From the IMG/VR virus record IMGVR_UViG_3300022602_000027: 64,000 bases of DNA. One strand, written 5' to 3'. Below are positions 43,815-44,863 of this stretch, piece by piece (the first letter of the stretch is position 1; each line of letters starts with the position of its first letter). The position numbers and the translations under genes are program-made. The notes under the pieces are model-generated. The model did no database searches. It saw nothing but the letters and a program-made list of their open reading frames with translations, and was not told the DNA's origin. Source of the DNA: a virus. Its lineage: Duplodnaviria; Caudoviricetes.

Positions 43815-44642
43815 ATGGCTACTAATCCATTACAGAAGTATTTTAGACAACCTAAAATTTTTATCAAACTACCTTCAGCTGGCGTTTACTGTCAGCCGGG
43901 CAACATACAAGGTGACAGCAATCACATGCCCGTGTATGGTATGACTGGCATGGACGAAATCATTATGAAAACGCCCGATGCACTACTAACAGGCGAAAGC
44001 ACAGTGCAGGTTATTGCCAGCTGTTGCCCATCAATAACTAATCCTTGGGACTTGCCCACTATTGATATCACTATCATACTAGCGGCAATTCGTATTGCTA
44101 CATTTGGCAATACCATAACCCTAACAGTAAAATGCACAGGATGTGAAAACAGTTCAGAGTACGAAGTTGACCTAAACAGAATTGTTGAACACTATATGGC
44201 TTGTCAGTATGAAAACTCTGTAGTGCTCAAGGATCTAGTGATCAAACTACATCCCTTAACCTACAAAGACAGCACAGCGTTTAATCTACGCAACTTCCAA
44301 CTGCAACAAAAGCTGGTGCAAGTAGACGCAATGCCGGACAATGACGAACGTAAAGCTCTGCTTAAATCAATATTTGAACAGCTGGCTGACTTGCAAACAG
44401 ACATCATTAAGAGCATTGTTGAAAGTATTGACATTGGCGATCAAATTGTGTCAGAAAAGACATGGATCAATGAATGGCTAGTAAACAGCGACAAGAGTGT
44501 GTTTGATGCTATCAAACAGCAAAATCAAAAGAACAATGCTACTTGGGCTGTTCCTCCTATGCCCGTTGTATGTGAGCATTGTGGAAAAGAAGATAAAGTT
44601 GCAGTAGAACTGGACGAATCAAATTTTTTCGTTCAAGCCTAA
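43815..44642 (+). CDS. gp26: Baseplate hub assembly chaperone, gp26-like (275 aa)
   Basis: NPL..YFRQP....LPS.G, MT..DEI..KTPDALL.G and two CxxC pairs; ends NFFVQA over a T TTT TTC slippery site. Confidence 0.75.
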   Translation: MATNPLQKYFRQPKIFIKLPSAGVYCQPGNIQGDSNHMPVYGMTGMDEIIMKTPDALLTGESTVQVIASCCPSITNPWDLPTIDITIILAAIRIATFGNTITLTVKCTGCENSSEYEVDLNRIVEHYMACQYENSVVLKDLVIKLHPLTYKDSTAFNLRNFQLQQKLVQVDAMPDNDERKALLKSIFEQLADLQTDIIKSIVESIDIGDQIVSEKTWINEWLVNSDKSVFDAIKQQNQKNNATWAVPPMPVVCEHCGKEDKVAVELDESNFFVQA

Positions 44643-44685
44643 TTGGTCTCAGCAATCAAGATATAGAACAACGGCTAATTAGGCT
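44624..44685 (+). promoter_or_regulatory. -1 programmed ribosomal frameshift signal (T TTT TTC, 5-nt spacer, 13-bp stem)
   Basis: AGCCTAATTGGTC (44636-44648) pairs with GGCTAATTAGGCT (44673-44685): 11 Watson-Crick and 2 G-U pairs. Confidence 0.75.
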
Positions 44686-44863
44686 AGACGAAGACATTAA
44701 AACTTTTAAACAAGAAATATTTAGAATATCTTGGTATATGAGAGGCGCAGTCACAGTTTCAGAACTGCTTAATCTCTATAGTTTTCAAGATCGTGATATG
44801 ATATATGCAGTTATCAAAGAGAATCTTGAAGTTACTAAAGAAACACGTATGCCTTTAATATAA
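44624..44863 (+). CDS. Start-less -1 frame extension (gp51/GT-like); predicted 349-aa frameshift fusion with the gp26-like protein
   Basis: Frame opens after the TAA at 44594 with no ATG/GTG until 44738; encodes FFRSSLIGLSNQDIEQRLIRLDEDIKTFKQEIFRISWYMRGAVTVSELLNLYSFQDRDMIYAVIKENLEVTKETRMPLI. Confidence 0.75.
   Translation, partial: FFRSSLIGLSNQDIEQRLIRLDEDIKTFKQEIFRISWYMRGAVTVSELLNLYSFQDRDMIYAVIKENLEVTKETRMPLI

What the first reader, a model, noticed from the sequence alone, without database searches (positions are those of the whole stretch)
43815..44863. -1 programmed frameshift fusing a T4 gp26-like chaperone to a gp51-like tail (lambda G/GT logic in a T4-like phage)
The gp26-like ORF ends AAT TTT TTC GTT CAA GCC TAA, giving the heptamer T TTT TTC at 44624-44630. 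Five nt later a 13-bp stem begins (44636-44648 with 44673-44685) and buries the stop codon. Its loop CAAGATAT (44657-44664) is complementary to ATATCTTG (44726-44733), a possible pseudoknot. The -1 frame has no usable start before 44738 yet encodes a plausible 79-codon protein resembling T4-like gp51 and GT-type chaperone tails (FRISWYMRG...SELLNL...DRDMIY..IKEN). Predicted products are 275 aa and 349 aa. G/GT frameshifts are established for lambda and P2 (a T6 run), whereas T4 encodes gp26 and gp51 separately. This locus would therefore tie the two systems together. The ORF track misses it.
Basis: partly seen in the sequence, partly recalled or inferred. Interest (0 to 1): 0.75.

Follow-up and report, generated by a model that had tools for sequence, protein, structure and literature searches.

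The report
Frameshift makes two baseplate-hub chaperone forms
One tail-assembly gene of this uncultured giant freshwater phage very probably makes a short and a long protein because some ribosomes slip back one base at a conserved TTTTTTC run, whereas phage T4 and some other relatives encode a short and a long form of the same protein family as two separate genes.

Summary
A 275-aa gene of the T4 gp26/gp51 family (Pfam PF12322) ends just after T_TTT_TTC (44624-44630) in slippery register. A stable stem begins 5-6 nt later. The -1 frame then stays open for 77 more codons and has no start codon until codon 37 of that stretch.

Comparison makes a programmed -1 frameshift very likely (about 0.9):
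- All 155 related loci examined (118 distinct) keep TTTTTTC in register, 115 of 118 exactly 108 nt before a conserved Trp codon.
- The -1 frame shows protein-type conservation starting at the slip site, and 77 of 118 have no nearby start codon.
- The stem shows compensatory changes.
- About 20 natural proteins carry the same tail fused in frame.
- All 9 such genes whose surroundings I examined sit beside a second, short PF12322 gene. 72 of 73 frameshift loci, six complete jumbo-phage genomes included, have a single PF12322 gene. T4 has two, genes 26 and 51.

Not supported: the proposed pseudoknot is not conserved. Sequence homology of the tail to the T4 gp51 C-terminal domain is not significant; only position and helix order agree. 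There is no homology to lambda G/GT.

No isolate record read annotates the slip, and I found no paper reporting it. This scan has already noted the same frameshift on other genomes.

The parts
43784..43791 (+). TATAAATA box, identical to the T4-type late promoter consensus, 23 nt before the start codon (inferred promoter)
   Evidence: Read directly. The T4 late promoter consensus TATAAATA is established knowledge. Function was not tested.
43803..43806 (+). GGAG ribosome-binding site 8 nt before the ATG at 43815
   Evidence: Read directly.
43815..44642 (+). 0-frame gene: 275-aa short form of the T4 gp26/gp51 family (baseplate hub assembly protein)
   Evidence: Pfam PF12322 at 9.4e-16. phrog_150 'baseplate hub' at 2.6e-20, covering profile positions 2-234 of 282, the same end-point as T4 gp26.
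44624..44630 (+). Slippery heptamer T_TTT_TTC in X_XXY_YYZ register
   Evidence: It is present in register in 155 of 155 related loci. G follows it in 117 of 118 distinct sequences. It lies 108 nt before the conserved Trp codon in 115 of 118. It is absent from the junction of 8 natural in-frame long forms.
44636..44685 (+). Stimulatory stem-loop: arms 44636-44648 and 44673-44685, conserved core 44637-44646 / 44675-44684, 24-nt loop. It holds the 0-frame stop codon at 44640-44642.
   Evidence: Free energy -17.7 kcal/mol, z = -4.66. In 34 relatives, 98.2% of cells are paired, 4 pairs show compensatory changes, and 0 of 500 shuffles reach the observed covariation. More distant clades have other 3' arms, but their stem also starts 6-8 nt after the heptamer.
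44630..44863 (+). -1 frame extension: 77 codons plus stop. It forms the C-terminal tail of the predicted 349-aa long form and has no start codon before 44738.
   Evidence: In 56 relatives the -1 frame has no stop, against a mean of 5.5 and 9.2 in the other frames. The synonymous share of differences is 0.26 against 0.08. The tail profile finds about 20 proteins of 319-351 aa with the same domain in frame at the C-terminus.
44657..44664 (+). Loop segment CAAGATAT, complementary to 44726-44733 (proposed pseudoknot arm; not supported)
   Evidence: The exact 8-nt complement is present in the window. The pairing is not conserved in 34 relatives.
44726..44733 (+). ATATCTTG, the proposed 3' pseudoknot arm. 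It lies in the codons for the conserved R-I-S-W residues.
   Evidence: Most relatives use AGT or AGC for the Ser codon and lose the complementarity.
44864..44890 (+). Terminator-like hairpin plus T run directly after the stop of the -1 frame
   Evidence: 8-bp stem at 44864-44883 followed by GTTTTT. This places the extension inside the same transcription unit (inferred).

Best explanation
This is a conserved programmed -1 ribosomal frameshift.

Most ribosomes translating the gp26/gp51-family gene stop at 44640-44642 and make a 275-aa short form. A fraction pause over the stem-loop that begins 5-6 nt after U_UUU_UUC. The two tRNA-Phe re-pair one base back (UUU_UUC to UUU_UUU), and translation continues in the -1 frame for 77 codons. 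This gives a 349-aa long form with the junction ...NFF/RSSLIG....

Both forms share the PF12322 body. The long form adds a four-helix tail. By analogy with T4 gp26 and gp51, both act in assembly of the baseplate hub and tape-measure complex, with the long form probably the minor product.

Shown here: the signals, their conservation, the coding nature of the -1 frame, the reality of the fused architecture, and that phages have either one frameshift gene or a short plus a long gene.

Inferred: that the slip happens on the ribosome, its efficiency, and the function of each form.
For: 1. The slip site is invariant. TTTTTTC is in register in RaK2, 121Q, XaC1, Cassandra and Phosso at about 30% protein identity, and in all 155 loci (118 distinct) examined. 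Its distance to the Trp codon is fixed, and G follows it in 117 of 118.

2. The -1 frame codes from the slip site onward. R3 and L6 of the tail are invariant, while the 0-frame residues over the same bases vary in 29 ways. The -1 frame has no stops, third codon positions vary most, and the synonymous share is three times that of the other frames. In 77 of 118 sequences there is no ATG/GTG/TTG within 8 codons of the heptamer.

3. The stem-loop is stable and shows covariation.

4. About 20 natural in-frame proteins of 319-351 aa are colinear with the frameshift product across the junction (...LD.S..FR..LI...). One of them folds with pLDDT 96 and pTM 0.92, tail included. The nearest short-form cluster aligns to residues 1-253, exactly up to the junction.

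5. Gene content agrees. All 9 in-frame long genes whose context I read have an adjacent short PF12322 paralog. 72 of 73 frameshift loci have none. Five complete isolate genomes and one 100%-complete 364-kb virus genome have one PF12322 locus, and T4 has two.

6. It is not an assembly error. Contigs from three independent lake runs are identical across the T6 run.
Against: There is no direct evidence for the trans-frame protein. I have no proteomics or ribosome profiling, and the one metatranscriptome contig covers only 44345-44491. Slip efficiency and the host are unknown.

In 33 of 118 relatives an ATG/GTG/TTG lies within 8 codons after the heptamer. Some isolate records annotate the tail as a separate small gene, so separate initiation cannot be excluded for those phages.

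The functional reading rests on T4 genetics by family membership. The tail shows no significant sequence similarity to Gp51_C.
Confidence: 0.9

Rival explanations
1. Transcriptional slippage. RNA polymerase adds one U at the T6 run, so a share of mRNAs carries the tail in frame. The protein products would be the same as for ribosomal slippage.
For: A homopolymer run sits exactly at the junction. A one-base insertion in the mRNA would give the same long form. No data here separate the two levels.
Against: Six T is short for efficient polymerase slippage, which in bacteria and phages typically needs about 9 or more (established knowledge; review PMC5009743). The run never lengthens in 118 distinct sequences. 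The codon register, the C and the following G are conserved. A stem with covariation sits at the spacing typical of ribosomal frameshift stimulators. DNA contigs show no length variation in the run.
Confidence: 0.05
2. The tail is a separate small gene. It would be translated by coupling or re-initiation after the stop codon, or from a non-standard start codon, so no fusion protein is made.
For: Some isolate records annotate a separate CDS of 52-76 aa with a start codon overlapping or near the stop (Phosso, 121Q, XaC1). 33 of 118 sequences have a possible start within 8 codons of the heptamer.
Against: The window and 76 other distinct sequences have no such start. In the window the first is at codon 37 of the extension, inside the conserved WYMRG motif. 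Protein-level conservation starts at the heptamer itself. No ribosome-binding site precedes the region. This reading does not explain why TTTTTTC is invariant, or why natural in-frame fusions exist and always come with a second short paralog.
Confidence: 0.04
3. A sequencing or assembly error in a homopolymer, or a decaying pseudogene of a once in-frame long gene.
For: Homopolymer runs are common sites of indel errors.
Against: The same architecture appears in 155 loci from many independent metagenomes and isolates, with purifying selection in both frames. Contigs from three independent runs are identical.
Confidence: 0.01

Closest known systems
Phage T4 gp26 and gp51 (baseplate hub assembly proteins; Pfam PF12322 T4_baseplate; gp51 also carries Gp51_C, PF28602)
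   Same: Same protein family. T4 gp26 ends a few residues after the conserved FF motif (EFFELL), as the window's short form does (NFFVQA). gp51 continues with about 48 more residues, as the long form does. After the last beta-hairpin, both the long form and gp51 have short, long, very short and long helices in that order. The gene sits next to the hub and putative tape-measure genes and is divergently transcribed, as T4 gene 26 is.
   Different: T4 uses two separate genes and has no slippery site: gp26 reads GAG TTC TTT GAG, and gene 25 follows. Here a single gene is paired with a -1 frameshift. The tail is 77 aa rather than about 55. It shows no significant profile similarity to Gp51_C (weak with permissive settings).
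Lambda gpG/gpGT and the conserved -1 frameshift of tail assembly chaperone genes in long-tailed phages (Xu, Hendrix and Duda 2004; P2 E/E+E' at a T6 run)
   Same: A slippery heptamer lies near the 3' end of a tail-assembly gene, and the two products share an N-terminal body, with a minor C-terminally extended form. By T4 precedent the proteins are assembly factors (PMC3004832).
   Different: There is no sequence or fold relationship to known chaperone families: the only Pfam hit is PF12322 and no solved structure matches. The gene is not between the tube and tape-measure genes on the same strand. Binding to a tape-measure or tube protein was not tested.
Tandem short plus long PF12322 gene pairs in uncultured phages (loci L087, L088, L090-L096)
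   Same: The long gene carries the same tail domain (WYMRG motif). The short gene ends just after the NF(F/L) motif. These pairs are the closest in-frame relatives of the predicted long form.
   Different: Both forms are made by ordinary translation of two genes. The junction has a single Phe and no T6 run.

Membership tests
Canonical -1 programmed ribosomal frameshift cassette | X_XXY_YYZ heptamer in the 0-frame register | tested here: met
   T_TTT_TTC at 44624-44630, register confirmed. It is conserved in 155 of 155 loci.
Canonical -1 programmed ribosomal frameshift cassette | Stable downstream RNA structure after a spacer of about 5-9 nt | tested here: met
   The stem starts 5-6 nt after the heptamer. 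Free energy -17.7 kcal/mol, z = -4.66. Covariation in 34 relatives, 0 of 500 shuffles. The proposed pseudoknot is not conserved.
Canonical -1 programmed ribosomal frameshift cassette | A -1 ORF that codes for protein but lacks its own initiation signal | tested here: met
Canonical -1 programmed ribosomal frameshift cassette | Trans-frame protein detected; slip depends on the heptamer and the structure | not testable with these tools
   Needs proteomics or reporter assays. Public reads gave only one RNA contig, upstream of the site.
Pfam PF12322 T4_baseplate (T4 gp26/gp51) | HMM match above the curated gathering score | tested here: met
   58.6 bits against a cut-off of 24.5, E = 9.4e-16, residues 60-271. 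phrog_150 at 2.6e-20. The fold matches baseplate hub proteins of many myoviruses in BFVD.
T4 gp51-type long form (PF12322 plus Gp51_C, PF28602) | C-terminal domain homologous to Gp51_C | tested here: inconclusive
   PF28602 is not in the local Pfam copy. Profile comparison of the tail with gp51 or its tail is not significant (E = 0.14 and 0.12). A permissive full-length alignment gives E = 7.8e-5 and runs through the tail. Tail alone gives E = 0.02, reached by 4 of 200 column shuffles. An in-frame homolog extends the phrog_150 match to position 249 of 282. The helix order is the same.
Lambda G/GT-type tail assembly chaperones | Sequence or fold membership in a known chaperone family | tested here: not met
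   No chaperone family among the Pfam, PHROG or NCBIfam hits. No solved-structure match at E <= 0.001.
Lambda G/GT-type tail assembly chaperones | Gene pair lies directly upstream of the tape-measure gene on the same strand | tested here: not met
   The gene is divergent from its neighbours. The 653-aa neighbour is only weakly similar (E = 9e-5) to RaK2 ORF088, whose record note calls it tape-measure-like.
Lambda G/GT-type tail assembly chaperones | Both isoforms needed for tail assembly, absent from virions, binding the tape-measure and tube proteins | not testable with these tools
   Only T4 precedent is available: gp51 is required for assembly but absent from the particle, and gp26 and gp51 are listed as hub assembly chaperones (PMC3004832).

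The most novel reading that the evidence does not exclude
The gp26/gp51 pair of T4-type phages is the long-missing counterpart of the G/GT tail assembly chaperones. On this reading, a short and a long isoform in a set ratio is a general requirement for building long phage tails. T4-related phages meet it either by a -1 frameshift in one PF12322 gene (RaK2-like jumbo phages and hundreds of uncultured freshwater phages) or by gene duplication (T4 genes 26 and 51, and the tandem pairs). That would give the poorly understood 'catalytic' T4 gp51 a concrete role as the minor, tail-bearing isoform.
Probability: 0.45. Interest if true: 0.8.

Novelty: new variant of a known kind. Interest (0 to 1): 0.7.

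Why it matters
Frameshifted tail chaperone pairs are a hallmark of long-tailed phages, and to my knowledge none has been described for T4-type phages. This locus and its 150-plus relatives show the same two-isoform logic in an unrelated protein family. It alternates in evolution with a two-gene solution.

- It gives a testable explanation for why T4 needs both gp26 and gp51, whose roles in hub assembly are still unclear.
- It corrects the annotation of many jumbo-phage genomes. In the five records read, the tail is either missing or called a separate hypothetical protein.
- It offers a clean natural experiment, frameshift versus duplication, for studying how isoform ratios are set.

Tried and rejected
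- **Pseudoknot** (44657-44664 with 44726-44733). The complement is present in the window but not conserved in 34 relatives, so I rejected it as a conserved element.
- **DNA similarity to isolate phages.** None found.
- **The tail alone against Pfam, PHROGs and NCBIfam.** No family.
- **The long form (one Phe short, read with a hand-made code) against PHROGs.** The match stops at the junction. BLASTP against T4 gp51 is not significant.
- **Profile comparison of the tail with gp51 and with Gp51_C tails.** Not significant with default settings.
- **A search for T4-like phages whose Gp51_C tail lies out of frame, as a bridge.** 52 of 53 are in frame, and the exception is broken mid-gene.
- **Fold searches.** AlphaFold DB Swiss-Prot holds no viral entries, and the PDB search gave nothing significant.
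- **Whole-genome search of the window's own genome.** No genome is held.
- **Neighbouring genes.** The 351-aa and 653-aa neighbours have no family hits. The 653-aa one is only weakly similar to the RaK2 gene whose record note calls it tape-measure-like.
- **Literature.** Five full-text searches, targeted look-ups in three further papers and one review gave no report of a frameshift in gene-26-like genes. Subscription journals are not covered.
- **Public reads.** They could not test slippage, because only contigs are available and the single RNA contig lies upstream.

Full report
**1. The observation**

The region reads as described. The ORF 43815-44642 encodes 275 aa and ends AAT TTT TTC GTT CAA GCC TAA. 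T_TTT_TTC at 44624-44630 is therefore in the X_XXY_YYZ register. The -1 frame is open from 44597 to 44863, and its first ATG/GTG/TTG is at 44738.

A slip gives the junction ...ESNFF/RSSLIG... and a 349-aa product. The 13-bp stem 44636-44648 / 44673-44685 starts 5 nt after the heptamer and encloses the stop codon. It folds at -17.7 kcal/mol, z = -4.66, and 0 of 200 shuffles fold as well.

A TATAAATA box (43784-43791) and a GGAG (43803-43806) precede the gene. A terminator-like hairpin (44864-44883 plus a T run) directly follows the stop of the -1 frame. The extension therefore lies inside the same likely transcription unit.

**2. What the gene is**

The 275-aa protein belongs to Pfam PF12322 T4_baseplate (E = 9.4e-16) and to phrog_150 'baseplate hub'. 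The nearest isolates are RaK2-like jumbo phages at about 30-33% identity: RaK2, 121Q/PBECO4, XaC1, Pseudomonas phage Cassandra and Sinorhizobium phage Phosso. The window's phage is uncultured and occurs in many lake and freshwater metagenomes from 2012 to 2023.

T4 gp26 (208 aa) and gp51 (249 aa) both match PF12322 over their first 200 or so residues. On phrog_150, gp26 covers positions 14-235, the window protein 2-234, and gp51 13-280. So gp51 is a gp26 paralog with about 48 extra C-terminal residues, which newer Pfam releases call Gp51_C, PF28602. T4 gp26 ends EFFELL, encoded GAG TTC TTT GAG. That sequence is not slippery, and gene 25 follows it.

**3. Comparative test of the frameshift**

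All five isolate genomes have T_TTT_TTC in register 10-40 nt before the stop, followed by a -1 ORF of 58-75 further codons. None of the five records joins the two frames. Three annotate a separate small CDS and two annotate nothing there.

Two scans of IMG/VR gave 160 loci. Together with the isolates and the window, 155 loci have a complete tail ORF, 118 of them distinct. Across these:
- Every one has TTTTTTC in register.
- The heptamer lies 108 nt before the conserved Trp codon in 115 of 118.
- G follows it in 117 of 118.
- The 0-frame stop follows within 10-19 nt in 116 of 118.

The residues of the -1 frame are conserved from the slip site onward: F1, F2, R3 and L6 are invariant, and the consensus begins FFR..LI. 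The 0-frame tail over the same bases takes 29 different forms.

Between the 0-frame stop and the internal Met, the -1 frame has no stop in 56 of 56 sequences, against a mean of 5.5 and 9.2 in the other frames. Third codon positions vary most. The synonymous share of differences is 0.26, against 0.08 in both other frames.

In 77 of 118 distinct sequences no ATG/GTG/TTG lies within 8 codons of the heptamer. In several, a stop codon in the -1 frame directly abuts the heptamer.

Contigs from three independent runs are identical across the T6 run, so this is not an assembly error.

**4. RNA structure**

In the 34 closest sequences the 10-bp core (window 44637-44646 / 44675-44684) is paired in 98.2% of cells. 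Four pairs show compensatory changes, and 19 cells carry double changes. 0 of 500 shuffles reach the observed covariation, and sliding the partner columns destroys the pairing.

More distant clades keep a 5' arm at the same place but pair it with different 3' partners. Examples are UCUUGUUC with GAACAAGA, and UUUUGCGA with UCGCAAGA. Phosso has a hairpin of -32.5 kcal/mol there.

The proposed pseudoknot is not conserved. Most relatives use AGT or AGC for the Ser of R-I-S-W and lose the complement.

**5. Is the fusion a real protein?**

A profile of the tail, searched against 1.84 billion proteins, found 314 hits. About 20 are proteins of 319-351 aa with the tail in frame at the C-terminus. They are colinear with the frameshift product across the junction (...LD.S..FR..LI...).

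One of these, folded with an alignment that included the window's two parts, gave pLDDT 96.4 and pTM 0.92, tail included. Its nearest ESM Atlas cluster, 277-aa PF12322 proteins, aligns to residues 1-253, exactly up to the junction. BFVD matches are baseplate hub proteins of many myoviruses. No solved structure matches.

**6. One gene or two**

The genes for two in-frame long forms each lie directly after a short PF12322 gene of 294 or 300 aa. These short genes end ...NFFTDNK and ...NFLPME, like gp26.

In the second IMG/VR set, all 7 in-frame long genes have an adjacent PF12322 paralog, while 72 of 73 frameshift loci have none. In-frame junctions have a single Phe and no T6 run (0 of 8).

Whole-genome searches find one PF12322 locus in each of RaK2, 121Q, XaC1, Cassandra, Phosso and a 100%-complete 364-kb virus genome. 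T4 has two.

So phages of this family carry either a short gene plus a long gene, or one gene with the slip site. This is the strongest argument that both forms are needed and that the slip supplies the long one.

**7. Is the tail gp51-like?**

Position and architecture agree, and so does the helix order after the last beta-hairpin:
- Long form: helices at 249-258, 262-289, 296-300 and 304-323.
- gp51: helices at 196-203, 208-221, 226-230 and 234-249.

A permissive full-length profile alignment runs through the tail (E = 7.8e-5). It pairs FFRSSLIGLSNQDI with gp51 VFKL-LVNPDEI. An in-frame homolog extends the phrog_150 match 14 positions past the gp26 end-point.

Default profile comparisons of the tail with gp51 or with Gp51_C tails are not significant. 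The tail-only permissive test is weak (E = 0.02, reached by 4 of 200 column shuffles). No T4-like phage with an out-of-frame Gp51_C was found to bridge the two. Homology of the tails is plausible but not shown.

**8. Relation to lambda G/GT**

The logic is the same: a slippery site near the 3' end of a tail-assembly gene, and two forms that share a body. The family is not the same. There is no chaperone-family hit and no fold match.

The gene is divergent from its neighbours. The 653-aa neighbour is only weakly similar to RaK2 ORF088, whose record note calls it tape-measure-like. The T4 literature lists gp26 and gp51 as hub assembly chaperones and states that gp51 is required but absent from the particle (PMC3004832). 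This fits a minor, catalytic long form, but that is inference.

**9. Rivals**

- Transcriptional slippage would give the same protein. The short, never-lengthened T6 run, the conserved register and the stem with covariation argue against it.
- Separate initiation of the tail fails for the 77 sequences without a start codon. It also explains neither the invariant heptamer nor the link with paralogs.
- Error or pseudogene is excluded by the comparative data.

**10. Novelty**

Five full-text searches, targeted look-ups in three further papers and the 2016 recoding review gave no report of this frameshift. None of the five isolate records read annotates it. Subscription journals are not searchable here.

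Earlier notes of this same scan describe the same frameshift on other genomes, with the same conclusion. My tests were run independently and agree with them.

I class it as a new variant of a known kind: the tail-chaperone frameshift, in a different protein family and phage group.

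Noticed in passing
window 45164-45303 (-), within the gap 44864-45312: A Polynucleobacter-1 RNA motif (Rfam RF01718; 79 bits against a gathering score of 37; E = 6.8e-17) lies directly downstream of the SegE-like GIY-YIG nuclease gene (45313-45759, -). 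The rest of the roughly 450-nt gap has no credible ORF. Other notes of this scan treat it as a larger structured RNA.
   Followed up: partly
window 44863-44905: The terminator-like hairpin after the tail ORF also occurs on many other contigs of the same lake metagenomes, at far higher summed depth (up to 534 against 43 for the flanks). It may be a repeated terminator or intergenic element shared within or between phage genomes.
   Followed up: no
window 42696-43751 (-): A 351-aa ORF with hydrophobic, membrane-like segments and no family hit lies between the gp26-like gene and the 653-aa putative tape-measure-like gene. Of six relatives checked, only the two closest (L008, L010) have it. In the other four the 653-aa homolog is the direct divergent neighbour.
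   Followed up: partly
L103:1351-3208: This is the only frameshift-type locus of 73 that also has an upstream PF12322 paralog. It could be an intermediate between the one-gene and two-gene arrangements.
   Followed up: no
L087:411-1295: The short paralog of a two-gene phage still ends ...AAT TTT TTC ACT..., the T_TTT_TTC heptamer in register. Its -1 frame stops after two codons. It may be a relic of a former slip site, or chance from the conserved FF codons.
   Followed up: no
window 44621-44627: A second in-register heptamer, A_AAT_TTT, overlaps the main one in the window and in about half of the relatives. The preceding codon varies (AAT, AGT, GAT, ACT), so this heptamer is not conserved.
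   Followed up: partly
L194:905-1680: One T4-like virus genome in IMG/VR has its gene 51 homolog split by a frame change in the middle of the gene. The other 52 are intact, so this is probably a sequencing error or a pseudogene.
   Followed up: no
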